Of a stretch of DNA of 64,000 bases, positions 45,927 through 60,716 are shown piece by piece. Source of the DNA: Bacteroidia bacterium (GTDB lineage Bacteria > Bacteroidota > Bacteroidia > SXHM01); NCBI GenBank assembly GCA_022072225.1, contig JAJVIC010000003.1:28688-92687 (forward strand). The letters run 5' to 3'. Each line of letters opens with the position of its first letter. Position 1 is the stretch's first letter. The notes under the pieces are model-generated. The model had not been told where the DNA came from, did no database searches, and saw only the letters and a list, made by a program, of their open reading frames with translations. The translations under genes were made by a program, and so were the position numbers.

Positions 45927-45928
45927 TT

Positions 45929-46825
45929 TTAACGGTATAAGAGGGTGTGTAATTCTTCGTTCTCAAACTTTAAACACAGTTTTCGCAATTCTTCTGCTGA
46001 GTATGGTTTGAGATTTAAAGGGGTAAGGTGACTTTCAATTTTTCGTGCTTTACTTTCGCCCATGCTGTGATAAGGGAGCAGATGAACTGTTTCTATTCCC
46101 ATTGCGCTTAACACGGTAATAATATCGTTTATATTTTTCTCGGTTGCCGTAAAACCCGGTATAAGCGGCACCCTGAATTCAACCGGTGCACTTTCCATAA
46201 CCAACCTGAGCATGTTGCTTGTAATCCGTTTGCTGTTTCCTGCTATTATTAACTTGTTGTCGTCAGGGTTTATGATTTTTACATCGAAGTAAATTAAATC
46301 GAGATAGGGCAAAAGCAGTTCAAATTTATCCCACGAAAAATAGCCGTTGGTTTCTATGGCTGTGTGAAGGCCTTCTGCTTTGCATCTTTCCAGCAGTTCT
46401 ATCAAGAAGTCATGGTGCAGTGTTGGCTCGCCACCCGAAAAAGTAACGCCACCACCGGAAGTTTTGTAGTAGTCAACATCACGCATAATTTCTGTCATTA
46501 CTTCATCGGCAGAATATTCTTTGCCAATTATTTTTAATGCTTCAGAAACGCATACATCAACACATTTTCCGCAACCGTTGCAGAGTTGACGATTTATTTT
46601 CAATCCGTCATCAAAACTGATGGCGTTCACCGGGCAGGCTTTTGCGCAATCGCGACTATCAATGCATTTATCATCGTAAATGGCAACCTGTGGCTTGAAA
46701 GCCATTGACTCTGGGTTCTGGCACCAGGGACACTCAAGGTTACAACCTTTAAAAAAAACTACTGTTCTTATTCCCGGGCCATCGTGAATGGAAAAGCGCT
46801 GAATGTCAAAAATAAGCGAGTGCAT
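45929..46825 (-). CDS. glycyl radical activating enzyme (radical SAM with ferredoxin insert)
   Basis: HDGPGIRT, CNLECPWCQNPES, CNGCGKCVDVC, SGGEP. Confidence 0.93.
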   Translation of the reverse strand: MHSLIFDIQRFSIHDGPGIRTVVFFKGCNLECPWCQNPESMAFKPQVAIYDDKCIDSRDCAKACPVNAISFDDGLKINRQLCNGCGKCVDVCVSEALKIIGKEYSADEVMTEIMRDVDYYKTSGGGVTFSGGEPTLHHDFLIELLERCKAEGLHTAIETNGYFSWDKFELLLPYLDLIYFDVKIINPDDNKLIIAGNSKRITSNMLRLVMESAPVEFRVPLIPGFTATEKNINDIITVLSAMGIETVHLLPYHSMGESKARKIESHLTPLNLKPYSAEELRKLCLKFENEELHTLLYR

Positions 46826-46868
46826 AAAGGCAAAATTATTTGCCAATTTTAGTTCATCCGATATTAAT

Positions 46869-46906: not shown

Positions 46907-48400
46907 TTATTTATCTATACTCAGCATAAACTTAGCCACCTCCAACCTTTTTTCTTCTGAAAGGTAATCTTGCGGAGGCATTTCGGGAAAATCTGTGCGT
47001 TTATGAACCGGTTTTGCAATATAGTCTGCAATTCCTTGCGGATTGTCTTTATACAACGCCTGAATAGTCATAACAGGCGGACCAATCATGCGCATGTTGT
47101 AGGAGTGGCAGCCGCTGCAAATTCCGTAATAAATCAGTTTTCCGCGATCTTCTGTTTTTGTGTCGCGGGCTGGTGCCGGTTCGGGCAGCATGTAGGAGAT
47201 GATGTTTCCCGTTCCGGCTGACTGGCACTGGCTGTAATTATTCAATCCAACTGTAATGTATTTATTCTTGTCGCGAATGCAACTGCCCGATCCACCACCT
47301 ATTGCAACAATATCAATTCCGGGTGTAGTAACTAAGTTGGCAACTTTATATGCTTTAAGTTCATCAATTGGATTACTGCCGTTGTTGCTCATAATATTGT
47401 CAAGAATAACAATGCGGTCGGGGTTGGGTTCTGATTCGGGGTCTTTGGTAATGTGAGCAATGAAATTCAAATCAGTCATCACAATACCTGCATTCTGGTT
47501 GCCAGTAATAATATTGTTTTCAATGGTAACTTCATCTGCCGCCATTATAATAATTCCTGTGCCTTTTGGAAGACTGGCCACTATGGAGCCTGGCTCGCCA
47601 AAGTTTTCAATGTTGTTGTTGATAACAAAGTTGTTGCGGATAATTACATCATAACAGGTTTTTATAGGCAGTCCGGGTGTGATGAAAGCAAGAATGCCGC
47701 CTGTATTATCGTGCACATAATTTCCTTCTACCAAAGCATGTCGTGAATTTTCAATTTCTATTCCTGCCACGCTGCTATGCACTTCGTTGTAAAGCACATC
47801 AATATTGTCGCACATGCCTACATATATTGCGGCATCTTCAATTCCTGAAAGTATGTTGTGTGAGATAAGACCGTTGGTGCCGAACTCGGGGAATATTCCG
47901 TAAACCCCGGTGTCTATTATATAGTTGTTGCGGATAATGAAATTGTTTCCGGCTTGTCCCATTATTCCGTTGCCTTTGTAGTTCATGATTTTGAAATTTT
48001 CAATCACCATGTTATTACCCGAATAGAGGATGGCATCATTGCGCGTTTTTTCACCTTCGAGTATGGGCCATTGTCCTTCGCGGATAATTCCCTGTAAATA
48101 AATATTGTCTTTATCAATGTAAACAGTTTCTTTGTATGTGCCCGGATAAACGCGAATAAGATAGCCTGATTGGGCTTTGTTTATGGCATCTTGAATTAGT
48201 TGTCCGGGTTTTACTTCTATAACATTGCGTTGTTCAGTTTGTTGTAAAGCAGCAATATCTTTGCTTCCTGCTCCTTTAAAATAATCAACGGTTGGCGGTG
48301 GGGGCACATTGCTTTTTTGTTTCATGGATACAAGGTATCCTGCACCGAAAATAATTCCTGCTGCGAGCAGTATTCCCAGAATTTTTAAAACAGATTTCAT
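46907..48400 (-). CDS. parallel beta-helix protein fused to C-terminal cytochrome c
   Basis: YGIFP, DAAIYVG, AGIEIENS, NTGGILAF repeats; C-terminal CSGCH...MPPQ. Confidence 0.85.
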   Translation of the reverse strand: MKSVLKILGILLAAGIIFGAGYLVSMKQKSNVPPPPTVDYFKGAGSKDIAALQQTEQRNVIEVKPGQLIQDAINKAQSGYLIRVYPGTYKETVYIDKDNIYLQGIIREGQWPILEGEKTRNDAILYSGNNMVIENFKIMNYKGNGIMGQAGNNFIIRNNYIIDTGVYGIFPEFGTNGLISHNILSGIEDAAIYVGMCDNIDVLYNEVHSSVAGIEIENSRHALVEGNYVHDNTGGILAFITPGLPIKTCYDVIIRNNFVINNNIENFGEPGSIVASLPKGTGIIIMAADEVTIENNIITGNQNAGIVMTDLNFIAHITKDPESEPNPDRIVILDNIMSNNGSNPIDELKAYKVANLVTTPGIDIVAIGGGSGSCIRDKNKYITVGLNNYSQCQSAGTGNIISYMLPEPAPARDTKTEDRGKLIYYGICSGCHSYNMRMIGPPVMTIQALYKDNPQGIADYIAKPVHKRTDFPEMPPQDYLSEEKRLEVAKFMLSIDK

Positions 48401-48403
48401 AGT

Positions 48404-49579
48404 TTATTGTATTTGGTTTTGCTTATCAGACGGTAAAAAACCGGAAGGTAATTTTTCGGGCGTTGAAGGTAAAAAACTTTCGTCAGTAAGTGTTTGAAGA
48501 AAATCGGTTACGCATTCTATTTCTGTTGCCGTCAGGCTAGGTTCCCAAATATGCCAGTGCAGACTTAGTTTTTCGTTGAGCGGCACAGCATGTCCGCGTC
48601 CTTTGTTATAAAATTCAACTACTTCTTTCAGCGATTTAAATTTTCCGGAGTGCATGTAGGGCGCTGTTTTGGCAATGTTGCGAAGGGTAGGAACTTTAAA
48701 GCCTCCGCGCATACTGGGGTCGTTAAAAGTTTTTTCAGCGCCAGGGTCAAAAGGCAAGTCGTCTTGTTCGGGTGTACCCAGTACGGCTATTTGCTGGTTG
48801 GTAAATAGAGGTGGTGTATGGCATTCTGCACAGCGTGCAACAAATGAGCGAAAAACATTCATGCCTTCAATTTCATTGGGTTTTAGCGCTTGATGAAAAC
48901 CATGAGCATACAAATCATAACGACTGTTGAGTGAAATGAGTGAAGCTTCAAAAGCGGCAATAGCAGTATAAATTTCATGCAATTGGATTTCGTTTTTCTT
49001 TTTATCGGGAAATGCCTGCATGAATAATTCGCGGTATTGATCGATGGAGTTAAGTGTTGCGAGCAAATTCGATTCAGTATTATTCATTTCATTTTCGGCA
49101 TAAAGCGGTCCTTGCATTTGTTCTTCCAAAGTGGTTGCACGACCATCCCAGAAAAACGATTTGAGGAAAGCTACATTCCATAACGTTGGTGCTGCACGGT
49201 TAAGCGGCAGACCGTTAAATCCTGTGCTGCGGGCTAATCCATCGCTGAATCCTTTTTGAGGAATGTGGCAACTTGCACAAGAAAGTTTTTTATTGCCAGA
49301 TAAAACGGGGTCGAAAAAAAGATAGCGACCAAGGTCAATTTGTTGTGGCGAAAAGCCGTCACGCATTTTGGGCAAACCAGTTTGTAAACCACCTACACCG
49401 GCATTGTTGAGTGATTTGTATTGGTGATAAAGTGAGCGACACAGGCATTTATTATCGGCAGTAAGCTCAAAGCCGGGTGGACAATGTTGTGCAAGTTTTA
49501 TGTTGCTTGTGTTTTCTTTTTTGCAAGTTGTTAGAAAAACAACAGCAAGAAAAAGAGTAATGCTACTGTATTTGTTCAA
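48404..49579 (-). CDS. diheme cytochrome c peroxidase, MauG/MbnH-like
   Basis: LGRYLFFDP, CASCH, FFWDGR, CAECH, FKVPTLRN, APYMHSG. Confidence 0.9.
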   Translation of the reverse strand: MNKYSSITLFLAVVFLTTCKKENTSNIKLAQHCPPGFELTADNKCLCRSLYHQYKSLNNAGVGGLQTGLPKMRDGFSPQQIDLGRYLFFDPVLSGNKKLSCASCHIPQKGFSDGLARSTGFNGLPLNRAAPTLWNVAFLKSFFWDGRATTLEEQMQGPLYAENEMNNTESNLLATLNSIDQYRELFMQAFPDKKKNEIQLHEIYTAIAAFEASLISLNSRYDLYAHGFHQALKPNEIEGMNVFRSFVARCAECHTPPLFTNQQIAVLGTPEQDDLPFDPGAEKTFNDPSMRGGFKVPTLRNIAKTAPYMHSGKFKSLKEVVEFYNKGRGHAVPLNEKLSLHWHIWEPSLTATEIECVTDFLQTLTDESFLPSTPEKLPSGFLPSDKQNQIQ

Positions 49580-50243
49580 CGGATTGTATGTATGATATTA
49601 TATCATTCAACATTTGTGCTTCATCAATAGTGCCGACTATTTGTTTCATCTGCGCACCAAATTTATCATTAACATGGGAGCCGCGTATTCCTTTTTTAAA
49701 ATTAAGTATCTGGTGTTTGAGGTACCAGTCGTTTATACCTGTTAGTTTTGGTGAATTCAATTTTTTATTACCTGCTGCTTTGGTTCCATGGCATGAGCCG
49801 CAAGCCATATTATAATAATCTTCTCCCTTTACAATATCTCCTTTTATGGTTTGTTCATTTGCTGCAGCTGAACGGGTTTTAATATACGCCACTACATCGG
49901 CTATTGTTTGCTCATCAGTGAGTGTTTGTGCCATGGGGGCCATTTGTGCGCCATAAATATCATCGGCATGGGTTCCTCTTATACCTGCCTTAAAGTTTGC
50001 TAACTGCCGTTGAAGATACCATTCATCTTGTGCAGCAAGATTGGGTGCATTTAAGGTTTGTATTCCTTGTGCATTGTTTCCGTGGCAGGCAATGCAAGTG
50101 GCAAAGAGGGTTTCGCCTTTTATTACATCGCCTTTTATTAGTGTTGTAGTATTTTCAGTTGCTAGTGAATCTTCAGATTTTTTTTGTTCAGTGCAACCAC
50201 TGTAAATTGAAATAATGATGAACAGGTATAGTAAATTTTTCAC
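49563..50243 (-). CDS. diheme c4-type cytochrome lipoprotein
   Basis: Lipobox SGC, CIACH and CGSCH, P.LA.Q...YL..QL. Confidence 0.88.
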   Translation of the reverse strand: MKNLLYLFIIISIYSGCTEQKKSEDSLATENTTTLIKGDVIKGETLFATCIACHGNNAQGIQTLNAPNLAAQDEWYLQRQLANFKAGIRGTHADDIYGAQMAPMAQTLTDEQTIADVVAYIKTRSAAANEQTIKGDIVKGEDYYNMACGSCHGTKAAGNKKLNSPKLTGINDWYLKHQILNFKKGIRGSHVNDKFGAQMKQIVGTIDEAQMLNDIISYIQSVEQIQ

Positions 50244-50520
50244 AGTGTAAACTACCTTCTGAGGATAATGTGTACAATACTATTAAAAAAAATGCAGCGG
50301 CTAAAGTATTTGAATTACAGCAGGCTAGAGCGGGAAACAACAAATGTTACTCTACCCAGAAAAAACATTTATTTTCTATCCCCGCCCCATTTATTAACCA
50401 CAAAAAACCTGCTGGAGCTATTTTAACCTTGCCTTAGTTCCATAGTACTTTTCATCAGCAAGAGCAAGATTATACAATCAATTCCGAGGTCAAAGAAATG
50501 GCAATTATTTTTTAAGAACT

Positions 50521-50534
50521 ATGATTGTTATCAT
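50521..50534. promoter_or_regulatory. Crp/Fnr-type operator in the divergent cytochrome/nor promoter region
   Basis: ACT-ATGA-TTGTTA-TCAT-ACT; minus-strand TTTG ends at 50491, plus-strand TTTA ends at 50564. Confidence 0.75.
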
Positions 50535-50630
50535 ACTTAAGAAAATATTTAGAGCAGTTATTTACGCATTGTTTATTTTTTTGAAGGAAGAGGTAGCTTA
50601 GTAAGTTTTCTGTTGGGTAAAAAAAGTATA

Positions 50631-51065
50631 ATGAGTTTGTTGCACAAGCGCTTATTTTTCTGGAGTTTGTTTATTGCTTTCGGCATTTACACGGTTGTTG
50701 TGTTTACCGATGATGCTGGCGATGATATGGGTGCGGAATACTTTACCCAAGAAGCGGCAAACGGCAAATTGCTTTATCAGAAATATAATTGCACCGCCTG
50801 CCATCAGTTGTATGGGTTGGGCGGATATATGGGTCCTGATCTTACCAATGTTATGTCTGCAAATGGAAGAGGTGAGTTTATTGTTCGTGCTTTTTTAAAA
50901 TCGGGAACTCAAAAAATGCCCAACTTTAATTTAACTGACGATGAAATAAATGACTTAGTGGCTTATCTTTCTTATGTTGATAAATCGGGCATTTCGCCTG
51001 TTCGTGATTTCAGTATTAATGCAGACGGAACAGTGGAAGTATTCAGTAACGGAGCAAAAGAATGA
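50631..51065 (+). CDS. norC: NorC-like membrane-anchored cytochrome c
   Basis: N-terminal TM, CTACHQ..G.GG..GPDLT, MPNFNL. Confidence 0.8.
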   Translation: MSLLHKRLFFWSLFIAFGIYTVVVFTDDAGDDMGAEYFTQEAANGKLLYQKYNCTACHQLYGLGGYMGPDLTNVMSANGRGEFIVRAFLKSGTQKMPNFNLTDDEINDLVAYLSYVDKSGISPVRDFSINADGTVEVFSNGAKE

Positions 51066-52375
51066 ACAAACCAACAAGCATACTTTTTATTATTACCGGT
51101 TTACTGGCATTGTTGCTGGGTATTTTTTTCGGGGCTATCAGCGCCTTACAATTTATTTTGCCCGGTTTTTTTGAGGTGCTGCCGTTTTTTAAAAGTCGGC
51201 CGCTGCATGTGTCGCTGGTGGTAGCCTGGATATTTTCGGCTGCGGTGGGTGGTATTTATTATTATCTTCCAAATCACTGCAATCTTCCTTTGTATTCAAA
51301 ACAATTACCCCGAATACATTTTGCTCTTTTTATCCTAACCGGGCTGCTCATTATTATCAGTTATATGCTGGGTAAATTCGGGGGCAGGGAATATTGGGAG
51401 TTTCCGCCTGTGCTGGCTATACCTATTATTATGGGATGGGTATTGTTTGGCTTCAATTATTTTAAAACGGTAATGAAAAAAAAGGAACCCTGGCCAGTTT
51501 ATCTGTGGATGTGGGCAACGGGTGTTTTCTTTTTCCTGTTTACTTTTTCTGAATCGTATTTATGGTTGTTGCCTTATTTTCGCAACAATGTTATTAGGGA
51601 ATTAACCGTTCAGTGGAAATCATACGGTGCGTTAGTAGGTTCGTGGAACATGTTGGTTTACGGCACCGCCATTTTTGTAATGGAAAAACTGAGCAATGAT
51701 AAAACCGTTGCACTTTCGCGCCTTTCATTCTTAATGTATTTTCTGGGGCTTACTAATCTGATGTTTGGTTGGGCACATCATATTTACATTGTTCCTTCGG
51801 CACCGTGGATACGCCATTTTGCTTATTTCATCAGCATGACTGAGTTGCTGATACTGGGCAAACTAATCTGGAATTTCAGTCACACTATAAAACAGGCAAA
51901 AGATACTTACGGCAATATAGCATCGCGTTTTATGGCTGCTGCCGATGTATGGATTTTCATCAACCTTATTTTGGCTTTGCTTATTTCAATTCCGGCAATA
52001 AATATTTATACCCACGGCACACATATTACCGTTGCCCATGCCATGGGAAGCACCATTGGTATTAACACCATGATTTTACTCAGTTCATGTTTCTACATTA
52101 TTGAGCAAACAAACAAAGCTACCGGCAGTGGGCCAAACAATAAACTAATAGGTTGGGGTTTCTGGATAGTAAACAGTTGTTTGCTCGTATTCTTTATTAG
52201 CCTTGTAGCAGCAGGTATAATAAAAGGATATTACACGGTAGAAAATGAACTCAGTTTTCAGGAAATAATGCAAAAAACAGCTCCCGCTCTTACAGTATTT
52301 GTTGCAACCGGACTAGGAATTTTTGCCGGTATGCTGCTTATAGTTTTATCTGCCCTGCGCAAGTTATTCAGATAA
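51062..52375 (+). CDS. norB: NorB-like heme-copper oxidase superfamily subunit I with non-canonical active site
   Basis: RPLH, GREYWEFP, WAHH, YTHGTH; canonical VHLWVEG replaced by KSYGALVG and HGH by HAM. Confidence 0.75.
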   Translation: MNKPTSILFIITGLLALLLGIFFGAISALQFILPGFFEVLPFFKSRPLHVSLVVAWIFSAAVGGIYYYLPNHCNLPLYSKQLPRIHFALFILTGLLIIISYMLGKFGGREYWEFPPVLAIPIIMGWVLFGFNYFKTVMKKKEPWPVYLWMWATGVFFFLFTFSESYLWLLPYFRNNVIRELTVQWKSYGALVGSWNMLVYGTAIFVMEKLSNDKTVALSRLSFLMYFLGLTNLMFGWAHHIYIVPSAPWIRHFAYFISMTELLILGKLIWNFSHTIKQAKDTYGNIASRFMAAADVWIFINLILALLISIPAINIYTHGTHITVAHAMGSTIGINTMILLSSCFYIIEQTNKATGSGPNNKLIGWGFWIVNSCLLVFFISLVAAGIIKGYYTVENELSFQEIMQKTAPALTVFVATGLGIFAGMLLIVLSALRKLFR

Positions 52376-52590
52376 TTATTTTAAGTAATATTACAAAAAC
52401 ACTTAAGCTCACCCGAGCAGAATTCTAAAGGCAGAAACATTGCAAAATATCCAATAGCGAAACTGTTTTAAGTTTTAACTCTATAGAATACGCCTAAATT
52501 GACACTTTAGTTATCGCTGATATATAAGAAATTAGTCTACCCATATTTTAACAATCTTCAATAAACATTCTCAACTGAATATATTTTACT

Positions 52591-52613
52591 TATCTTTGTG
52601 AGCGAATACTCAC
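52591..52613 (+). promoter_or_regulatory. Bacteroidota -7 element with overlapping probable TetR operator
   Basis: TATCTTTG 52591-52598; GTGAG-CGAATA-CTCAC 52598-52613. Confidence 0.7.
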
Positions 52614-52635
52614 TTACTTTAAAAATATAAACAAC

Positions 52636-53049
52636 ATGAACGGTAAAAACAACATCGCCATAGGCTTCCTGACAATGGGATTCTTTATGGCTTACGGCTT
52701 TCTGTTAATTTACCTCCGTGACTTTGCACCCGATAAAGAAGCATGGGCTAATTCTTACAGTATTGGTAAACATTTTGAAAGCAGACTGGCTCACGTTCAC
52801 GGCAACCTGTTTGCGTTCTTAAATATTCTCATGGGTTACCTCTTAATCCATTTCAGAGATAAACTCAAAAATGTAAAAGCTATTTCTTGGTTAGCATTAA
52901 CAGGTTTGTTAATGCCAATAGGAATATTAACGGAGGTCTATTTTGGTTTGCCTCCTGCTCTGGTATTAGTTGGAGCAATTGCAATGACAGCTTCTGTGAT
53001 TTGGTTAGGATTTTCGTTTATTAATTTAAAACTCAACAATGAAAAATAA
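52636..53049 (+). CDS. hypothetical four-TM membrane protein
   Basis: RLAHVHGNL motif, hydrophobic. Confidence 0.75.
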   Translation: MNGKNNIAIGFLTMGFFMAYGFLLIYLRDFAPDKEAWANSYSIGKHFESRLAHVHGNLFAFLNILMGYLLIHFRDKLKNVKAISWLALTGLLMPIGILTEVYFGLPPALVLVGAIAMTASVIWLGFSFINLKLNNEK

Positions 53050-53632
53050 AGATTTTACCGAAAGGCAAATAGAAATAATGGAAGCAGCTACGCTTCGTAT
53101 TGATAAATTCGGAATACAGGAATTAACGATAAAAAATTTAGCTTCTGATCTGAATTTATCTGAGGCTGCATTGTATCGTCATTTTAAAAGTAAAAACGAA
53201 ATATTGCTCGGACTACTTACTTATTTTATTTTAGAAATGAACGAGCGAATTGCTGCAATAATAGCCGATAAAGAAAAGCAACCTTCAGAGCTTTTGAAAC
53301 AAATATTTGTGTCACAACTAAACACATTTGTTAAAAACCCTGCTATAGTTAGCGTGATTTTTTCCGAAGGAATATTTCAATTTAATAAAGAACTAAGCGA
53401 AAAGGTTACAGCAATGATGGCCTTGATGCAAAAGAATATCAATACGCTTATTATAAGAGGTCAAAAAGAAGGTGTTTATGAAAAGCTGCTAGGGGCTGAC
53501 ACTATTACAACAATTATTATGGGTAGTATGCGAATGGTGGTTTTAAAATGGAAACTCTCCGGCAACAAATCCAATTTAGTAAATGATGGAAAAAACGTAT
53601 TAAACGGACTTTTAAAAATGTTAGAGAAATGA
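53039..53632 (+). CDS. TetR/AcrR family regulator
   Basis: TIKNLASDLNLSEAALYRHFKSK. Confidence 0.93.
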   Translation: MKNKDFTERQIEIMEAATLRIDKFGIQELTIKNLASDLNLSEAALYRHFKSKNEILLGLLTYFILEMNERIAAIIADKEKQPSELLKQIFVSQLNTFVKNPAIVSVIFSEGIFQFNKELSEKVTAMMALMQKNINTLIIRGQKEGVYEKLLGADTITTIIMGSMRMVVLKWKLSGNKSNLVNDGKNVLNGLLKMLEK

Positions 53633-54018
53633 AAAAATACCTTCCCTACATAGCAGCATCTGTCCTGGCTGCTTTTGGTCTGCTCACCTTATTTCTCAGC
53701 TCCTCTGTAATTTTTGATTTATTTGGTATAAGAGCAAAAGAAGGTAATTATGTTTTGTTTATTGTTTGGTCAAATTTCATCAGCAGCATACTTTATCTCA
53801 TTGCATCTTATGGCTTTGTTGCATCTCAAAAATGGACTGCTAAATTGTTAGGTATTTCAGCAATAATTTTAATTACTGCTTTTGTTGGCTTAATAATCCA
53901 TATAACTACTGGCGGTATTTATGAAACCAAAACCATCGGTGCCATGATTTTTAGAATTTCTGTAACCCTTGTATTTACAATCATTGCTTATTTCACAATA
54001 ACAAAAGATAAATCATGA
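53629..54018 (+). CDS. hypothetical four-TM membrane protein
   Basis: Hydrophobic 129 aa, translationally coupled. Confidence 0.75.
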   Translation: MKKYLPYIAASVLAAFGLLTLFLSSSVIFDLFGIRAKEGNYVLFIVWSNFISSILYLIASYGFVASQKWTAKLLGISAIILITAFVGLIIHITTGGIYETKTIGAMIFRISVTLVFTIIAYFTITKDKS

Positions 54019-54059
54019 AATACGAAGTATTCACGAATACCAAAATAAACAAAACCTTT

Positions 54060-54491
54060 ATGAGTAAAAAGACAGTCATTATAGCTCCTCTTATCAGTTT
54101 GTTCCTTTTTAGTTGTAGCAACACAGCTTCTCAAAAAGAACATCAGCACAATACTGAAACCCAAGTCATCGAACTGAACAATGGCGAAAAATGGGAAGTA
54201 GATGATAATATGTTAGTCCATATCCGCAACATGGAAAATGATGTTCAGGAATTCGCAACTGCCGGACAGAAAAACTACACGGTATTGTCAGATAAACTTC
54301 AAAAAAATATTGACTTGCTTACTTCCGATTGCACTATGAAAGGCAAAGCACACGATGAGCTTCACAAGTGGTTATTACCCTACATTGATTTGGTAAAAGA
54401 ACTTTCAGAAACTGAAGACCAGACCGAAGCAGCAAAACAATTTCAAAATATTCAAACTTCCTTCATAACATTTAATCAATATTTCCAATAA
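54060..54491 (+). CDS. His-containing lipoprotein
   Basis: Lipobox FSC, LNNGEKW, CTMKGKAHDELHKWL. Confidence 0.75.
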   Translation: MSKKTVIIAPLISLFLFSCSNTASQKEHQHNTETQVIELNNGEKWEVDDNMLVHIRNMENDVQEFATAGQKNYTVLSDKLQKNIDLLTSDCTMKGKAHDELHKWLLPYIDLVKELSETEDQTEAAKQFQNIQTSFITFNQYFQ

Positions 54492-54505
54492 AATACTTAA
54501 TCAAT

Positions 54506-54895
54506 ATGAACTATTACAATTCAAAAAATATTACGGGTACAACAGTAGCGGCTATTCGATCAAAAGTTGAAGATGCATTAAAAGCTGAAGGATTTGGGGT
54601 GCTTACTGAAATTGATATACAAGCAACCATGAAGAAAAAATTAGATAAAGATTATTTACCCCATCTTATTTTAGGTGCATGCAATCCTGTTTTTGCTGAC
54701 AAAGTCCTTTCTGTTGACCAACATATCAGTTTGATGCTGCCTTGTAATGTAACTATCCGGCAGGTAGAAAATAACGAAGTTGAAGTAGCAATAATTAATC
54801 CCTTAGAAGCAATGAAGGTTATTGGCAATTCCATTATTGAAAATTATGCTAACGAAGTAAACGAAAAATTAAATCGTGTTTTAGCAAACATTTAA
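54506..54895 (+). CDS. DUF302 family protein
   Basis: EGFGVLTEID, ILGACNP, LMLPCNV. Confidence 0.9.
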   Translation: MNYYNSKNITGTTVAAIRSKVEDALKAEGFGVLTEIDIQATMKKKLDKDYLPHLILGACNPVFADKVLSVDQHISLMLPCNVTIRQVENNEVEVAIINPLEAMKVIGNSIIENYANEVNEKLNRVLANI

Positions 54896-54906
54896 TCAAT
54901 ACCTCC

Positions 54907-55194
54907 ATGAACATAAAAGAATTACACACACAAGAAAAACCGGTTTCAGCAATTTCTCTTTTCAAAAGTGAACTGGGCAATGCAACTGCAATAAAAATTT
55001 TACAAGGCGAAAAATTGAAAGAGCACATCACCAGAACCCCTGCACTTTTGATTTGTATGGAAGGAGAAGTGATTTTTGAAAATGAAAAGGGTAAAAAGGA
55101 AACACTAATGCCGGGTGATTATATAAACATTGAACCAATGGTAAAGCATTGGGTCGAAGGAACAGTTGAAAGTCAATTAATACTCATTAAGTAA
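54907..55194 (+). CDS. cupin domain protein
   Basis: LKEH, GEV, PGD.I.I.P.V.H. Confidence 0.8.
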   Translation: MNIKELHTQEKPVSAISLFKSELGNATAIKILQGEKLKEHITRTPALLICMEGEVIFENEKGKKETLMPGDYINIEPMVKHWVEGTVESQLILIK

Positions 55195-55209
55195 AAAAAA
55201 TTTTGACCA

Positions 55210-56544
55210 ATGAAGTTAGTAAACATTCACAAACACACGTTATTACTACTATTCCTTTTAATAGGAGTTTATACAGCTCAAGCCCAAGTCTGGACAATGC
55301 AACAGTGTATAGATACCGCACAGGTTCATAATAAAAACCTACAAATGAGTAGAAATAATAATGCCATTAGTGAACAAAAGGCGAAAGAAGTAAAAGCCAA
55401 TTTAATTCCGAAAGTAACAGCCAATGCAGATTACAAGTACTTCACCAATCTGCCATACCAATTAATGCCATTGTCAACCTTTAACCCAACAGCACCCGAA
55501 GGGCAGTTTAAAGAAGCACAGTTTGGTGTTCCGCACAACATCAACGCCAATTTACAGTTGTCAATGCCATTGTATAATCCGCAAGTTTACGGAGCAATTC
55601 AAACTACAAAGATAGCCTCGGAATTGACAGACTTGCAATATCAAAAAACAGAAGAGCAAATCTATTTTGAAATTTCCAATCTCTATTATAATGCACAGAT
55701 TTTACATCATCAGTTAGCCTTTATTAACAGCAACCTTATAAATGCTGAGCAACTGCTAAAAAATATGCAATTGCTCAACCAACAGCTGCTTGCAAAAGGA
55801 ACGGATGTTAGCAAAGTAAAATTGCAGGTTGCTCAATTAACCACACAAAAAGAAAGTATCAGCAGTAAATACAAGCAGGTTTTAAATGCCTTAAAATTCA
55901 CAATGGGTATTTCAATAGAGCAGAGCATTCAGATAGACCCAAACATTCAATATCAAAGCACAACTGAATATTCAAGGTCCTCAACATTAGATATCCATAT
56001 AATAAAAATCCAAAATCGCCTATTGTCAAGTGAACTAAGCACCTTAAACAAATCCAGGTTTTTGCCATCGCTTAATCTATTCGGAACTTATGGAACCACA
56101 GGTTTCGGATACGACAAACAGCCCAATGACTTTCTAAAATTCTACCCAATTGGTTTTGCAGGTATTCAACTCTCTTATCCCTTATTTAACGGAACAGTTA
56201 CTCAACGAAAAATCAATCAAAAAACATTGGAACTTCAAAACAACGAACTTCAGTTTGGATTACTTTCCGAACAAAATAATATGCAGATTGAAAATACTCG
56301 AATGCAACGAGAAGTCGCTAAAAAAACGGTAGAAACTACAATAGAGCAAATCCAATTAGCACAGACAATATACGAACAGAGCGTTCTTCAACGAAAACAA
56401 GGAACGGCAAGTTTAACAGATGTTTTACTCGCAGACAATGCTTTACGTGAAGCACAACAAACTTATCTCACTACAGTAATTGATTATCTGAAAGCAGATT
56501 TAGAACTAAAAAAACTAACTGGAAATATTTCAACTAAGAATTAA
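55210..56544 (+). CDS. TolC family outer-membrane efflux protein
   Basis: Signal peptide, LIPKV, PLYN, FLPSL, PLFNG, DVLLA. Confidence 0.9.
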   Translation: MKLVNIHKHTLLLLFLLIGVYTAQAQVWTMQQCIDTAQVHNKNLQMSRNNNAISEQKAKEVKANLIPKVTANADYKYFTNLPYQLMPLSTFNPTAPEGQFKEAQFGVPHNINANLQLSMPLYNPQVYGAIQTTKIASELTDLQYQKTEEQIYFEISNLYYNAQILHHQLAFINSNLINAEQLLKNMQLLNQQLLAKGTDVSKVKLQVAQLTTQKESISSKYKQVLNALKFTMGISIEQSIQIDPNIQYQSTTEYSRSSTLDIHIIKIQNRLLSSELSTLNKSRFLPSLNLFGTYGTTGFGYDKQPNDFLKFYPIGFAGIQLSYPLFNGTVTQRKINQKTLELQNNELQFGLLSEQNNMQIENTRMQREVAKKTVETTIEQIQLAQTIYEQSVLQRKQGTASLTDVLLADNALREAQQTYLTTVIDYLKADLELKKLTGNISTKN

Positions 56545-56549
56545 AGGCT

Positions 56550-57611
56550 ATGAAAATGAATTGGAAAAAAATAATCGGAATAATTGCAGGTATTGCAATC
56601 CTTGCTCTTGTGGTTTTTAAGCTAAAAACCAACAAAGAAATTACGCAGAGCAAAGTATATCAATACGATAAAGAACAAGCTATAAATGTTCAAGTAGATA
56701 CCCTTCGACTTGAAAATATGAATGCAGAATTTTCTTATTCAGGAACATTTGAACCCAATAAGGAAACCAAAATAAGTGCCGAATTACAAGGGAAAATCAA
56801 TGCCATTTTAGTTGATGCTGGAAGCGTGGTAAGTAAAGGTCAAACTTTAATTCAGCTGGACAATTCATTGCTGAAATTGCAACTACAAGCTATTGAAGTG
56901 CAAATAGAAGGATTGGAAGTAGATGTAACCCGCTATACCATTTTAGCTAAATCAGATGCCATTCAAGGAGTTCAATTAGAAAAGGCGGAGTTAGGATTAA
57001 AATCTGCAAAGGTTCAGAAAGCAACTTTGTTGGAGCAGATAAACAAAACCACTATTAAAGCACCTTTTAACGGTGTAGTTACGGCAAAACTAAGTGAAGA
57101 AGGAGCATTCGCTGCACCCGGAGTTCCATTGCTTCAAATAACAGACATTAAAAATTTAAAATTCACAGTAAATGTTCCCGAAAAAGATTTAAGCCAATTC
57201 AAAATCAATCAAAGCTATTCTCTTTCGGCAGATGCTTATGCTGAAATGCTATTGACTGGAAAAACTACTATGATTGGTAGTAAAGCTAATATGGGAAGTA
57301 GTTTTCCTGTTCAGTTTATGGTAAATAACACATCCGATTTGAAAATAAAATCAGGAATGTTTGGTAAAGTTTTACTCAAAAGCGAAACGTCTGGAAATGG
57401 AATTGTCATTCCGTCTTCTGCCATACAAGGCACTGAAAACCAACCGCAAGTTTACATAGTGAAAAATGGCAAAGCCCTTTTACAAAACATCACTATATCA
57501 AATAAGATACAGAACAAAGCAGTTGTTTCAAATGGATTAAATGAAGGTGATGTAATTGTAACCAATGGCTTCATCAATCTTTTTGATGGTGCAAATGTAA
57601 CTGTTAAATAA
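56550..57611 (+). CDS. RND efflux membrane fusion protein
   Basis: G..VSKGQ.L..LD, IKAPFNGVV, SGMF. Confidence 0.92.
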   Translation: MKMNWKKIIGIIAGIAILALVVFKLKTNKEITQSKVYQYDKEQAINVQVDTLRLENMNAEFSYSGTFEPNKETKISAELQGKINAILVDAGSVVSKGQTLIQLDNSLLKLQLQAIEVQIEGLEVDVTRYTILAKSDAIQGVQLEKAELGLKSAKVQKATLLEQINKTTIKAPFNGVVTAKLSEEGAFAAPGVPLLQITDIKNLKFTVNVPEKDLSQFKINQSYSLSADAYAEMLLTGKTTMIGSKANMGSSFPVQFMVNNTSDLKIKSGMFGKVLLKSETSGNGIVIPSSAIQGTENQPQVYIVKNGKALLQNITISNKIQNKAVVSNGLNEGDVIVTNGFINLFDGANVTVK

Positions 57612-57623
57612 AATCAGCGAAAA

Positions 57624-60600: not shown

Positions 60601-60716
60601 TGGCTTGGGTAATCATTGGTGGACTTCTTTCCTCTTTAATTTTGACCGTATTTTTAGTTCCGATGGTCTATTATTTAGTTGACACAGCGAAAGAAAAAAT
60701 AAACAGAAGAAAATAG
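57624..60716 (+). CDS. RND efflux permease (AcrB/AcrD/AcrF family)
   Basis: SIKRP, YPGA, GILVDDAVVVLENI, KNAILIVDF, RMRPILMT. Confidence 0.95.
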   Translation: MNITEISIKRPSLIIVLFSVFTLLGFIGFKNLSYELMPDFNQPVVVIKTVYPGAEPNEVETSVSRKIEDALSNLEGVDYLVTKSLPNASIIIANLKYGTDLDKTMQDAQRYIDNIRKDLPQDILSPVMSKVSPNDLPIMSISATSNLSPTEFYQKMKDDYLPQIQQIKGVAEITVLGGEEREIQVKINQDKLKLYKISMVQVVEAINRSGLDLPAGKVQTEKESNSVRLTGKFTSLEDIKKVQVAMPVIGSPVYVKDIANVIDGIKETTSISRYNGKNGIGLMLKKQGDANAVDVSKLVRAKFKSIEQQNSNAGVRFIIADDSTDNTIAAVNSVVFDLVLAVILVSLVMLLFLRSFRNSLIVIVAIPTSLVTAFAVMWLLGYTLNLMTLLAMSLIIGILVDDAVVVLENIQKHLDKGKDKRIAAMDGRMEIGFAALSITLVDVVVFLPILFLQVFVADMLKQFSVVVVTSTLTSLLVGFTLTPWLASRIGKKEDLQPTNFFNRFLLWFEHQLEKFTNWYGRQLEWVLSHKLIFTGIVLLLFVMTLGIMKQGIIGKELISTGDQGKFKMALEFDKSTSIQQNNLIAQKIETYIIQQPEVATVFSNIGGPSTGIGSLGVGSANKTEFTIQLKSKKELKNLPTEGFMKKLREELKTKFPSINYSMAALGLIPRSAPIEITLSGSNLNQVMKSGNELKAIIEKMPGADNVRLSVETGSPEYKIIPDKDKMQRLGLTTAYVGLNLRTAFTGNDDATLTENGTEYPVRIWLDEFSRQNFEDVQQLSIINPMGIPVEVSQFTNIEQDNSPSLLERKDRQPAVTLTADALGRPSGTVADDVVAYLKENPLPNGIQMTWGSDIKRQNDSFGALGSVLLISFLLIYLIMIALYDSFIYPFVVLFSIPVAAIGAFFALNLSLSNLSLFALLGLIMLMGLVVKNAILIVDFTNQLKAEGKHFKEALIIAGKGRMRPILMTTLSMVVGMLPIAMATGTAAEWKNGLAWVIIGGLLSSLILTVFLVPMVYYLVDTAKEKINRRK

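What the first reader, a model, noticed from the sequence alone, without database searches (positions are those of the whole stretch)
50631..52375. NorCB-like enzyme with a rebuilt binuclear centre
Seen, by manual alignment to canonical cNOR NorB: heme b His (H49), GRExxE, HH (H239/H240), E261 and the heme b3 His (H326) are kept. Helix VI WVVHLWVEGVWE becomes WKSYGALVGSWN, so the FeB His is Tyr188 and the two catalytic Glu are Val192 and Asn196. HGH becomes HAM, so the second low-spin heme ligand is Met328. An extra His appears in THGTH. The ORF is intact and coupled to a norC-like cytochrome, so this does not look like decay. Inference: a divergent heme-copper superfamily member with different chemistry (not standard NO or O2 reduction; N2O or another N-oxide is possible). 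No norD/norQ FeB-insertion genes are adjacent.
Basis: partly seen in the sequence, partly recalled or inferred. Interest (0 to 1): 0.85.

Follow-up and report, generated by a model that had tools for sequence, protein, structure and literature searches.

The report
Rebuilt NorCB-like haem enzyme linked to NosZ
This is an intact two-gene membrane haem enzyme related to bacterial nitric oxide reductase whose second metal site has been rebuilt; it belongs to a large, untested Bacteroidota family that travels with nitrous oxide reductase genes and is routinely mislabelled as an ordinary NO reductase or oxidase.

Summary
The genes are real: a NorC-like cytochrome c (50613/50631-51065) overlaps by 4 nt a 437-aa haem-copper-superfamily subunit I (51062-52375). 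One point is off. Two of three alignments put the lost helix-VI histidine at the invariant Gly189, not Tyr188. Tyr188 varies; Lys186, three residues earlier, is invariant. Both catalytic Glu are lost (V192, N196), and His/Met replaces His/His on the low-spin haem (M328).

The protein is not a one-off. It belongs to a family of thousands, mostly Bacteroidota, under purifying selection (dN/dS 0.11). In my tree the family is sister to cNOR+qNOR. It is probably the uncharacterised family that Murali et al. 2024 labelled 'N2O red'; I could not verify this because the supplements are closed.

New here: the family co-occurs with clade II nosZ (37/48 versus 47/203 genomes). It lies within 12 kb of nosZ in 9 of those 37, in some inside the nos operon. 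NirK is rare (6/48). No norQ/norD were found apart from one NorD-like hit on a contaminant contig. This genome also has a canonical qNOR, a cbb3 oxidase and NosZ.

Best reading: a cytochrome-c-fed N-oxide reductase with a non-canonical distal site that works beside NosZ. NO is the likeliest substrate and N2O the bold alternative. The function is untested.

The parts
50520..50535 (.). Perfect palindrome TATGAT-N4-ATCATA, 92 nt upstream of the TTG start. Candidate Crp/Fnr-type operator.
   Evidence: Read. A version with at most 1 mismatch (ATGAT-N4-ATCAT) lies within 300 nt upstream of 11 of 58 NorC-like genes, against 1.58 expected from shuffled upstream regions. Crp/Fnr genes sit directly upstream in 36 of 81 neighbourhoods. 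Weak evidence; the regulator is not adjacent in this window.
50613..51065 (+). NorC-like membrane-anchored monohaem cytochrome c (150 aa from TTG 50613; 144 aa from ATG 50631). It has an N-terminal hydrophobic helix, CTACH at residues 60-64, and M102 in the KMPNF motif.
   Evidence: Pfam Cytochrom_C 1.2e-11. Best PDB match is NorC 3o0r_C, E 6.4e-11, with the GxGxYxxP(D/E)L stretch aligned. A homologue lies directly upstream of the HCO gene in 57 of 80 neighbourhoods.
50790..50804 (+). Haem c attachment motif C60-T-A-C63-H64 of the NorC-like subunit.
   Evidence: Translation; aligned to the CxxCH of NorC.
51062..52375 (+). Haem-copper-superfamily subunit I homologue (437 aa, 12 predicted TM helices) of the 'QWK' clade, sister to cNOR/qNOR.
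   Evidence: Pfam COX1 4.2e-36. ccoN scores only 61.7 bits against a cut-off of 583. PDB and fold matches. Tree. dN/dS 0.107 against L001.
51206..51208 (+). H49, first axial ligand of the low-spin haem b (helix II).
   Evidence: Aligned to the NorB haem b His. Kept in 178/179 QWK and 13/13 QWH sequences.
51386..51400 (+). R109-E110-Y-W-E113 (GRExxE). E110 aligns with the Glu of NorB's GREFLE. That this Glu binds Ca2+ is recalled, not tested here.
   Evidence: E110 is kept in 174/179; E113 is kept in 120/120 close homologues but 30/59 distant representatives.
51611..51649 (+). Rebuilt helix VI, Q184-W-K186-S-Y188-G189-A-L-V192-G193-S-W-N196. The canonical metal-ligand His is replaced by Gly189, with Lys186 at i-3. 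The Glu211 equivalent is V192 and the Glu215 equivalent is N196.
   Evidence: hhalign and L-INS-i alignments; phmmer shifts the match by one residue. Conservation: K186 177/179, G189 179/179, N196 178/179, Y188 112/179. The conserved helix face points at K186 (1 degree) and away from Y188 (159 degrees).
51776..51781 (+). H239-H240, the two helix VII ligands of the non-haem metal site; retained.
   Evidence: Kept in 178/179 and 176/179.
51842..51844 (+). E261 in SMTE, equivalent to NorB Glu280 (helix VIII).
   Evidence: hhalign. Kept in 176/179 QWK sequences and absent from 13/13 QWH sequences.
52013..52024 (+). H318-G-T-H321 loop before helix X. H318 is conserved as in cNOR, qNOR and cbb3. H321 replaces the cNOR Gln.
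   Evidence: H318 176/179; H321 120/120 close homologues but 34/59 distant representatives.
52037..52045 (+). H326-A-M328. The proximal His of the high-spin haem b3 is kept. The second axial His of the low-spin haem is replaced by Met, predicting a His/Met haem b.
   Evidence: H326 177/179; M328 175/179 QWK and 13/13 QWH.

Best explanation
The two genes encode a cytochrome-c-dependent membrane haem complex of a distinct haem-copper-superfamily family. I call it the 'QWK' clade; it is sister to cNOR+qNOR.

Inferred electron path, by homology to cNOR: periplasmic cytochrome c, then the NorC-like haem c, then a His49/Met328 low-spin haem b, then the His326-ligated high-spin haem b3.

The pocket opposite haem b3 is rebuilt. 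Only two of the three His ligands remain (H239, H240). The helix-VI His is replaced by Gly189. An invariant Lys186 one turn earlier on the same helix face probably reaches into the vacated space, either as a ligand or as a fixed positive charge. Both catalytic Glu are gone (V192, N196). Glu261 is kept.

The enzyme therefore cannot hold the His3-Glu FeB of cNOR.

Physiologically it belongs to the anaerobic N-oxide module built around clade II NosZ in organisms that mostly lack nitrite reductase. My committed reading is that it reduces a small N-oxide at haem b3. The likeliest job is scavenging NO to N2O, which NosZ then consumes. This would run under a Crp/Fnr-type regulator.

Shown: the sequence anatomy, the family, the selection and the nosZ linkage. 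Inferred: cofactor content, the role of Lys186, the substrate and the regulation.
For: Anatomy:
- Searches give the ligand map and conservation: K186 177/179, G189 179/179, N196 178/179, M328 175/179.
- The conserved face of helix VI points at K186.
- The sister 'QWH' clade has His at position 186 (12/13) and Asp at position 189 (13/13). Typical metal ligands there suggest this position faces the metal site.

Fold: AF2 pLDDT 92.7. The top Foldseek hits are cNOR NorB and cbb3 CcoN, TM 0.85-0.89.

Electron input by c-type haem:
- A NorC-like partner lies directly upstream in 57/80 neighbourhoods; its best PDB match is NorC.
- Four ~800-aa relatives are fused to cytochrome c domains, three of them also to a FixO-like domain.

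Distinct family:
- The tree is (cbb3,((cNOR,qNOR) 95,(QWH,QWK) 99) 86).
- ccoN scores 61.7 bits against a cut-off of 583.

Functional constraint: dN/dS is 0.106-0.108.

NosZ link:
- In 251 sampled genomes of the class, the family is present in 48 and NosZ in 84.
- The overlap is 37/48, against 47/203 in family-negative genomes.
- The link holds in cbb3-positive genomes (24/27 vs 36/116) and cbb3-negative genomes (13/21 vs 11/87).
- By genus, counted by hand: 28/33 vs 31/117.
- In 9 of the 37 the two genes lie within 12 kb on one contig.
- G159 and G221 have MbnP-CCP-NorC-like-HCO-cyt c-(fasciclin)-NosZ-NosL-NosD, with two further ORFs of NosF/NosY size in G159, all on one strand.
- G238 has NosZ-NosL-NosD-F-Y-Crp-Crp-NorC-like-HCO.

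Not a denitrifier's enzyme:
- NirK is present in 6/48 family-positive genomes and in 7/50 of a second set.
- This genome has NosZ and qNOR. It has no NirK above cut-off and no NirS.

No FeB-insertion genes: 4 of 4 reference cNOR loci carry norQ-norD; here there are none.

Lead, not verified for this family: Cloacibacterium CB-01 is reported with nosZII plus 'cNor', without nir, and with 'minor NO reductase activity' (PMC11168931, passage read).
Against: - No biochemical or genetic data exist for any member.
- I could not obtain model coordinates, so the orientation of Lys186 rests on alignment, conservation and helix periodicity only.
- Loss of a His and of Glu211 abolishes the known cNOR metal site. 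An efficient NO reductase is therefore not expected by the textbook mechanism.
- This genome already has a qNOR 18 kb away, so NO scavenging would be redundant here.
- 11/48 and 21/50 family-positive genomes show no NosZ.
- Physical linkage to nosZ is the minority case: 9/37 in the class sample, and 3 of the 80 loci fetched with 8-kb flanks.
- In this genome nosZ is on another contig.
- Genomes are related, so the co-occurrence statistics overstate the signal.
- The operator motif occurs in only 11/58 upstream regions.
- The RNA evidence is five short low-depth contigs from RNA libraries that may also carry DNA.
Confidence: 0.45

Rival explanations
1. It is a haem-copper-superfamily N2O reductase: a membrane-bound, NosZ-independent enzyme. 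Murali et al. 2024 proposed this for their cNOR-related 'N2O red' family, to explain the acetylene- and sulfide-insensitive membrane N2O reductase of Flexibacter canadensis.
For: - PMC11214002 (passages read) describes such a family 'closely related to cNOR'. My tree places this clade beside cNOR/qNOR, and it is Bacteroidota-dominated.
- The rebuilt active site argues for chemistry other than standard NO reduction.
- The genomic link to N2O respiration genes is strong.
- 11/48 carriers lack NosZ.
Against: - 37/48 carriers already have NosZ. An alternative enzyme would be expected to replace NosZ rather than accompany it.
- No haem enzyme is known to reduce N2O (recalled).
- I could not verify identity with the published family, because the supplements are closed.
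- I found no named isolate such as Solitalea/Flexibacter among 120+120 listed homologues.
Confidence: 0.15
2. It has an accessory or protective role in the NosZ module that is not N-oxide reduction. Examples are O2 or peroxide scavenging to protect NosZ, or a redox or sensing module.
For: - Co-occurrence and occasional operon membership with nos genes.
- A CCP/MauG-type dihaem peroxidase gene lies nearby in 5 of 81 neighbourhoods, including this window. It is paired with MbnP in four of the 80 fetched loci and in the G159 and G221 operons.
- Neighbours typical of low-oxygen life: Crp/Fnr, ribonucleotide reductase, radical SAM, and a glycyl-radical enzyme in the window.
Against: - There is no active-site Tyr and only two His. 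The cbb3 Tyr position aligns with L233 (the position of the cross-linked Tyr is recalled). O2 reduction by the HCO mechanism is therefore unlikely.
- 27/48 carriers already have cbb3.
- The full haem-ligand set and a dedicated cytochrome c input are conserved. That looks like a catalytic reductase, not a sensor.
Confidence: 0.2
3. It is an ordinary cNOR-type NO reductase with a normal FeB site, as the database names imply (JGI 'nitric oxide reductase subunit B').
For: - The best sequence and fold matches are cNOR NorB and NorC.
- GRExxE, HH, E261 and the haem b3 His are kept.
Against: - One of the three His and the Glu ligand of FeB are absent, as is Glu215. These losses are fixed across 179 sequences.
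- The low-spin haem ligand is Met.
- The clade lies outside cNOR.
- No norQ/norD are present, against 4/4 reference loci that have them.
- NirK is rare in carriers.
Confidence: 0.05
4. It is a decaying or non-functional cNOR remnant.
For: Loss of canonical catalytic residues.
Against: - The ORFs are intact and overlap by 4 nt.
- dN/dS is about 0.11.
- The replacement residues themselves are invariant.
- Thousands of homologues exist.
- The AF2 model is confident.
Confidence: 0.02

Closest known systems
cNOR (NorCB), e.g. Pseudomonas aeruginosa 3O0R
   Same: - Two-subunit layout: a NorC-like monohaem cytochrome plus a 12-helix subunit I.
- Best sequence and fold match.
- Haem b3 His, two of the three metal-site His, GRExxE, the Glu280 equivalent and the THGT loop are all kept.
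   Different: - The helix VI His is replaced by Gly189, with Lys186 at i-3.
- Glu211 and Glu215 are lost.
- The low-spin haem is His/Met.
- It forms a separate clade.
- No norQ/norD are present.
- It is found mostly in nir-less, nosZ-carrying Bacteroidota.
'N2O red' HCO family of Murali et al. 2024 (PNAS, PMC11214002)
   Same: That family is described as closely related to cNOR, lacking the active-site Tyr, uncharacterised and tied to a Bacteroidota organism. This clade fits all of that. It is probably the same family; my estimate is about 0.75.
   Different: - Membership could not be checked: the sequence lists and alignments are in supplements that are closed.
- The passages of the main text that I read give no active-site description and no nosZ co-occurrence.
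cbb3 oxidase subunit CcoN (C-family)
   Same: - Same fold (TM 0.87-0.89).
- A shared VQW motif precedes the helix VI ligand position.
- Some relatives are fused to FixO/CcoP-like cytochrome domains.
- NCBI names many members 'cbb3-type cytochrome c oxidase subunit I'.
   Different: - ccoN HMM scores 61.7 bits against a cut-off of 583.
- No helix VI His and no cross-link Tyr.
- The genuine cbb3 is encoded elsewhere in this genome.
NOD (putative NO dismutase) and gNOR
   Same: Both are precedents for HCO members in which a metal-site His is replaced. gNOR has His to Asp (PMC11214002, passage read). The NOD substitutions are recalled.
   Different: - NOD branches inside qNOR and is a fused protein; gNOR is B-family-related with a cupredoxin subunit (PMC11214002).
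- This clade is separate and uses a NorC-like partner.
- The sister QWH clade, not this one, has Asp at the His position.
nNOR and some eNORs (His/Met or His/Lys low-spin haem)
   Same: The low-spin haem is ligated by His plus Met. Murali et al. state that this raises the potential by about 150 mV in nNOR (passage read).
   Different: nNOR is B-family-derived, has a CuA-type subunit and keeps the full cNOR-like metal ligands. The similarity is convergent.

Membership tests
cNOR NorB | Non-haem FeB held by three His (helix VI His plus helix VII HH) and one Glu (Glu211, P. aeruginosa numbering; the numbering is recalled) | tested here: not met
   HH is kept (H239/H240). The helix VI His aligns to G189 or Y188. 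Glu211 aligns to V192.
cNOR NorB | Bis-His low-spin haem b and His-ligated high-spin haem b3 (HxH in helix X) | tested here: not met
   H49 and H326 are kept. The second axial His is Met328, in 175/179 sequences.
cNOR NorB | Conserved Glu215 and Glu280 near the active site | tested here: not met
   Glu215 is replaced by N196 (178/179). The Glu280 equivalent, E261, is kept.
cNOR NorB | NorC monohaem partner and the GRExxE / NorC Gly-x-Tyr Ca2+ site | tested here: met
   The NorC-like gene overlaps by 4 nt. NorC 3o0r_C is its best PDB hit, with GxGxY aligned. GREYWE is aligned. This is sequence-level evidence only.
cNOR NorB | Branches within the cNOR clade | tested here: not met
   QWK+QWH form a clade (SH-aLRT 99) sister to cNOR+qNOR (86). 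This is a quick tree with 4 cNOR, 1 qNOR, 5 cbb3 and 1 A-family reference.
cNOR NorB | norQ/norD activation genes | tested here: not met
   4/4 reference loci have them. None is adjacent here. The only NorD-like hit is on a 66.9%-GC contaminant contig, and no NorQ was found.
cbb3 CcoN | Equivalog HMM TIGR00780 above cut-off; three-His CuB with a cross-linked Tyr | tested here: not met
   The score is 61.7 bits against 583.15. The helix VI His is absent. The cbb3 Tyr column holds L233 (that this Tyr is the cross-linked one is recalled).
'N2O red' HCO family (Murali et al. 2024) | Closely related to cNOR within the C-family branch and lacking the active-site Tyr | tested here: met
   Searches (tree; no Tyr or His), against the text passages.
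'N2O red' HCO family (Murali et al. 2024) | Match to the authors' HMM or sequence list; presence in Flexibacter (Solitalea) canadensis | not testable with these tools
   The supplements are closed. No named isolate appears among the 120 listed hits of either homologue search.
'N2O red' HCO family (Murali et al. 2024) | N2O reductase activity | not testable with these tools
   No assay exists in the papers I read. It is a proposal there too.
qNOR / NOD | Fused N-terminal NorC-like domain (PF22085) and branching within qNOR | tested here: not met
   P0002 has COX1 only. The genome's true qNOR (789 aa, PF22085 + COX1) is a different gene. Tree.

The most novel reading that the evidence does not exclude
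The family could be a haem-copper-superfamily enzyme whose distal site uses a lysine instead of the universal helix-VI histidine, with either a 2-His+Lys copper/iron site or no second metal at all. It could catalyse a reaction no HCO is known to perform, namely reduction of N2O. That would make it a second biological N2O sink beside NosZ, widespread in wastewater and soil Bacteroidota.
Probability: 0.15. Interest if true: 0.95.

Novelty: new member of a known kind. Interest (0 to 1): 0.62.

Why it matters
NosZ is treated as the only biological sink of the greenhouse gas N2O. N2O-respiring Bacteroidota without nitrite reductase are now being applied to farmland to cut emissions (PMC11168931).

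Annotation pipelines call this family 'nitric oxide reductase subunit B' or 'cbb3-type oxidase subunit I'. Genome surveys that count 'norBC + nosZ' organisms may therefore be counting an enzyme that lacks the cNOR catalytic site.

In my sample the family is in 48 of 251 sampled genomes of the class, and 37 of those 48 also carry nosZ. Knowing whether it makes N2O from NO, consumes N2O or does something else bears directly on predicted N2O budgets.

For bioinorganic chemistry it is a natural experiment: the His that Murali et al. describe as conserved in all HCO families except gNOR is replaced by a Gly-plus-Lys arrangement, and the low-spin haem is His/Met.

It also makes the 30-year-old report of a membrane-bound, acetylene-insensitive N2O reductase testable with a defined gene pair.

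Tried and rejected
- Classical FNR box (TTGA-N6-TCAA): 0 of 60 upstream regions, so dropped in favour of the ATGAT-N4-ATCAT palindrome.
- Sigma-70 and terminator scan of 50200-52700: promoter-like sites below the shuffled mean (6 vs 8.2) and terminator-like sites not clearly above it (4 vs 2.1, sd 1.4). Bacteroidota promoters are not covered by that scan.
- Plasmid collection: no family member. All 220 hits were below 60% identity, with at most about 25% in the 40 rows listed. The four loci I fetched are canonical cNOR, and I used them only as references.
The link to F. canadensis and to CB-01's 'cNor' therefore stays unverified.
- Literature searches for a description of this family beyond Murali et al.: searches found none.
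- Papers where I read passages only and found nothing relevant: PMC3362086 and PMC9239227.
- NorD-like hit in the genome: rejected as contamination. The contig is 2.9 kb at 66.9% GC, against 42.5% for the genome.
- Conserved neighbours such as proline dehydrogenase (24 loci), ribonucleotide reductase (19) and an FAD-binding flavoprotein (FAD_binding_2, 12): treated as lineage synteny, not as functional partners.
- The downstream TetR/RND efflux genes and the 137-aa ORF did not fall in any of the 25 largest neighbour clusters.
- RNA runs X15-X18: only five short contigs. Stretches without cover, including the upstream intergenic region, say nothing.
- Model coordinates are not exposed, so I could not measure the Lys186-to-haem geometry (one search shows no model file).
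- Complex prediction, the protein-atlas search and the second fold job were not used.
- Tree limits: quick search; 4 alphaproteobacterial cNOR, 1 qNOR, 5 Bacteroidota cbb3 and 1 A-family outgroup; no NOD, eNOR, sNOR, gNOR or nNOR sequences available; long-branch warnings.
Full report
**What is there.** The window carries two co-directional ORFs on the + strand. The first runs 50613 (TTG) or 50631 (ATG) to 51065 and encodes 150 aa. The second runs 51062-52375 and encodes 437 aa. They overlap by 4 nt. The first is a c-type cytochrome (Pfam Cytochrom_C 1.2e-11). It has an N-terminal hydrophobic stretch and one CxxCH motif. Its best match among solved structures is NorC of P. aeruginosa cNOR (3o0r_C, E 6.4e-11), followed by the NorC-like protein of Roseobacter. 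The second matches Pfam COX1 (4.2e-36). It reaches only 61.7 bits on the cbb3 CcoN equivalog model, whose cut-off is 583. Its best sequence match in the PDB is NorB 3o0r_B (E 5.5e-19), ahead of cbb3 CcoN chains (about 1e-9). An AlphaFold2 model built on an 82-sequence alignment is confident (pLDDT 92.7, pTM 0.92, 12 long helices). Its top Foldseek hits are cNOR NorB and cbb3 CcoN, at TM 0.85-0.89.

Every residue number in the finding is correct. phmmer against NorB and a profile-profile alignment of 82 family sequences against four canonical NorB sequences (hhalign probability 99.8) agree on the following:
- H49 is the first haem b ligand.
- GREYWE matches GREFLE.
- H239/H240 are the helix VII pair.
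- E261 matches Glu280.
- H326 is the haem b3 ligand.
- Met328 sits where the second haem b His should be.
- V192 and N196 sit where Glu211 and Glu215 should be.

The one disagreement concerns the helix VI histidine. phmmer places a gap so that it aligns with Y188. hhalign and a MAFFT L-INS-i alignment that also includes qNOR and cbb3 align it with G189. In the latter, the family's VQWKSYG lines up without gaps on cbb3's VQWWYGH.

Conservation settles which residues matter. I examined 179 full-length members: 120 close homologues and 59 distant cluster representatives.
- G189 is invariant (179/179).
- K186 is kept in 177/179, N196 in 178/179, E261 in 176/179 and M328 in 175/179.
- Y188 is Tyr in only 112/179; N, G, T, C and others occur.
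- The 'extra' His321 is fixed among close homologues (120/120) but not among distant ones (34/59).

A simple helical-moment calculation on helix VI puts K186 1 degree from the most conserved face and Y188 159 degrees away (no significance test). The lost ligand is therefore best described as His replaced by Gly189, with an invariant Lys one turn earlier on the same face. It is not His replaced by Tyr.

**A family, not a one-off.**
- A word-indexed search found 3466 proteins at E<=1e-3 among the 8000 candidates scored. The best 120 are 58-91% identical, and every one that carries an organism name comes from a Bacteroidota MAG. Those with a source name are called 'nitric oxide reductase subunit B' by JGI or 'cbb3-type cytochrome c oxidase subunit I' by NCBI; most carry none.
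- An exhaustive HMMER search of 50%-identity representatives gave 574 hits at E<=1e-3 and 121 at E<=1e-30.
- Among the 72 full-length representatives that I tabulated, nearly all carry QWKxxG...(W/F)N, HH and AH(A/S)MG, and most also SMTE; a few look chimeric.
- A more distant set of 13 carries QWHxxD, GHHHY, no E261 and still AHxMG. I call these the QWK and QWH clades.
- A quick maximum-likelihood tree gives (A-family,(cbb3,((cNOR,qNOR) 95,(QWH 100,QWK 97) 99) 86)). It has 56 rows and uses LG+C20. References are 4 cNOR from annotated plasmids, the genome's own qNOR, 5 Bacteroidota cbb3 and 1 A-family outgroup.
- Its limits are few references, no NOD or B-family NORs, and long-branch warnings.
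- The window's gene is under purifying selection: dN/dS is 0.107 and 0.106 against the two nearest loci and 0.108 against a 64%-identical one.

**What the sister clade says about Lys186.** In QWH, position 186 is His (12/13) and position 189 is Asp (13/13), with a third His after HH (12/13). Ordinary metal ligands at exactly these two positions suggest both face the metal site. By inference, Lys186 in QWK occupies the space freed by Gly189. It could act as a nitrogen ligand, giving a 2-His+Lys site, or as a fixed charge in a site without a second metal. I could not test this geometrically because model coordinates are not exposed.

**Genomic setting in this organism.**
- Upstream and divergent lie a dihaem cytochrome c, a CCP/MauG-type peroxidase, a NosD-like beta-helix protein, and a glycyl-radical enzyme with its activase.
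- Downstream lie an unknown 137-aa ORF, a TetR regulator and an RND efflux set.
- The genome is 4.87 Mb and 98.7% complete. Elsewhere it encodes an A-family oxidase, a genuine fused cbb3 CcoNO (669 bits on ccoN) and a canonical 789-aa qNOR about 18 kb downstream of the finding. The qNOR sits near ScdA/hemerythrin and DUF2249 genes.
- It has a clade II NosZ (927 bits), no NirK above cut-off and no NirS.
- All four reference cNOR loci carry norQ and norD. Here none is adjacent. The only NorD-like hit lies on a 2.9-kb contig of 66.9% GC in a 42.5% GC genome, so it is a contaminant. No NorQ was found.

**Conserved neighbours.** I compared 81 neighbourhoods: 80 loci plus the window. In one locus my ORF filter missed the HCO gene.
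- The NorC-like gene lies directly upstream in 57 of 80.
- One or two Crp/Fnr-family regulators lie just upstream on the same strand in 36.
- A perfect palindrome, TATGAT-N4-ATCATA, sits 92 nt before the start in the window. A version with at most 1 mismatch occurs upstream of 11 of 58 NorC-like genes, against 1.58 expected from shuffled sequence. This is suggestive only.
- Four ~800-aa relatives are fused to cytochrome c domains, three of them also to a FixO-like domain. This supports c-type haem as the electron entry.

**The link to NosZ.** I searched an evenly drawn sample of 251 genomes of the class, all at least 90% complete.
- The family is in 48 genomes, spanning 33 of 150 genera.
- Clade II NosZ is in 84, cbb3 in 143 and NirK in 18.
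- 37 of 48 family-positive genomes have NosZ, against 47 of 203 family-negative ones, an odds ratio of 11.
- The contrast holds among cbb3-positive genomes (24/27 vs 36/116) and cbb3-negative genomes (13/21 vs 11/87).
- At genus level, by my hand count, it is 28/33 vs 31/117.
- Related genomes are not independent, so the p-values overstate the signal, but the effect is large.
- In a second set of 50 family-positive MAGs, chosen from the 80 loci, NosZ is in 29, NirK in 7, qNOR in 9 and canonical cNOR in 3. In 39 of the 50 this family is therefore the only cNOR/qNOR-branch protein detected.
- NirK is in 6/48 family-positive and 12/203 family-negative genomes.

Physical linkage exists but is the minority case. 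In 9 of the 37 co-occurring genomes the two genes lie 1.4-12 kb apart on one contig (coordinates).
- In G159 and G221 the order is MbnP, CCP/MauG, NorC-like, HCO, cytochrome c, (fasciclin), NosZ, an unknown ORF, NosL, NosD. All lie on one strand. In G159 two further ORFs of the size expected for NosF and NosY follow; I did not annotate those two.
- In G238 the order is cytochrome c, fasciclin, NosZ, NosL, NosD, NosF, NosY, Crp, Crp, NorC-like, HCO.
- Among the 80 loci fetched with 8-kb flanks, NosZ appears in 3.
- In this genome nosZ is on another contig.

**Occurrence and expression.** The exact DNA is held by wastewater, sludge and bioreactor metagenomes: 14 runs with at least 0.76 of the sampled words, from 7 studies, some of which may be the source. 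Five short contigs (158-256 nt, 0-1 mismatch) from four RNA-library runs of two studies fall inside the two genes. The tool warns that such libraries can carry DNA, so this is only a weak hint of transcription.

**Comparison with the literature.** For Murali et al. 2024 (PMC11214002) I read the outline and passages found by term search, not the whole text or the supplements. They describe six HCO families that lack the active-site Tyr. [quoted passage not shown] They cite the membrane-bound enzyme of Flexibacter canadensis and count 25 NCBI genomes, 597 IMG metagenome hits and 293 GTDB genomes. The 2021 preprint says the same. The placement, the missing Tyr and the Bacteroidota bias of the clade studied here all fit. 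A family this large can hardly have been missed, so I put identity at about 0.75. The sequence lists are in closed supplements, and I found no named isolate among the listed homologues.

The passages I read give no active-site map for that family and no nosZ association. The same paper reports His/Met low-spin haem in the unrelated nNOR, and His replaced by Asp in gNOR. These are useful precedents.

Hiis et al. 2024 (PMC11168931, passage read) state that Cloacibacterium CB-01 has nosZII and 'cNor' but no nitrate or nitrite reductases, and that its NO kinetics indicate minor NO reductase activity. A related preprint calls two isolates 'norBC + nosZ' organisms. That genotype is exactly what I find for this family. 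I could not check whether their 'cNor' is a member, so it is a lead only.

Six literature searches found no other description.

**Most likely mechanism.** By homology, electrons enter from periplasmic cytochrome c through the NorC-like haem c. They pass through a His/Met haem b, probably of raised potential, to the His326-ligated haem b3. The substrate binds between haem b3 and a pocket lined by H239, H240, K186, N196 and E261. The His3-Glu FeB site of cNOR cannot form, and no NorQ/NorD-type insertion genes were found. The enzyme travels with NosZ in organisms that usually cannot make NO themselves, and it sits next to Crp/Fnr regulators. I therefore read it as part of an N-oxide scavenging module. 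The likeliest job is NO to N2O, which detoxifies NO and feeds NosZ (confidence 0.45).

The published alternative, an HCO-type N2O reductase, is not excluded (0.15). The usual presence of NosZ weakens it. The 11/48 carriers without NosZ, and the oddity of the site, keep it alive. A protective or accessory role, such as O2 or peroxide scavenging or redox relay, gets 0.2. An ordinary cNOR gets 0.05 and decay 0.02.

**Verdict.** The interpretation of a divergent HCO with non-standard chemistry is reasonable, but it is already in print for what is probably the same family, and it remains untested.

Noticed in passing
Outside the window: G000 contig C7 98008-100377 (-), locus L087:6008-8377: A canonical 789-aa qNOR (NorB_cytochrome_c-like + COX1) lies about 5 kb beyond the window's end. 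Its closest relatives G021 and G022 also keep a qNOR on the same contig as the NorCB-like pair.
   Followed up: partly
Outside the window: L087:12549-13823 (-), with L087:13825-15611 (-): A 424-aa membrane ORF shows only a faint COX1 match (E 3.9e-6) and about 24% identity to family members. It sits beside DUF2249/DUF1858 and a ScdA-hemerythrin (RIC-type) gene. It may be another very distant HCO-like protein in an NO-stress cluster.
   Followed up: partly
window 46907-50243 (-): Divergent from the finding lie a dihaem cytochrome c (49563-50243), a CCP/MauG-type dihaem peroxidase (48404-49579) and a NosD-like beta-helix protein (46907-48400). A CCP/MauG homologue recurs near the family in 5 of 81 neighbourhoods. 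It is paired with MbnP in four of the 80 fetched loci and in the nos-embedded operons of G159 and G221.
   Followed up: partly
window 43545-46846 (-): A pyruvate-formate-lyase-like glycyl-radical enzyme (793 aa) with its radical-SAM activase (305 aa). These are markers of an anaerobic lifestyle next to the locus.
   Followed up: no
Related proteins P0231-P0272 (13 sequences): The 'QWH' sister clade has His and Asp at the positions of Lys186 and Gly189, a third His after HH, no Glu261 and the same His/Met haem motif. It looks like a second uncharacterised HCO family.
   Followed up: partly
G000 contig C51 (2949 bp): A contig of 66.9% GC in a 42.5% GC genome carries a NorD/CbbO-like fragment. 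It is probably bin contamination.
   Followed up: yes
window 30001-32000: Unusually strong strand asymmetry (GC skew 0.281, AT skew -0.389) compared with the rest of the window.
   Followed up: no
window 53039-60716 (+): A TetR regulator, small unknown ORFs, DUF302, a cupin, then a TolC-like outer-membrane protein, an RND adaptor and a 1030-aa ORF not annotated here (RND-pump size). This looks like an efflux operon unrelated to the finding.
   Followed up: no
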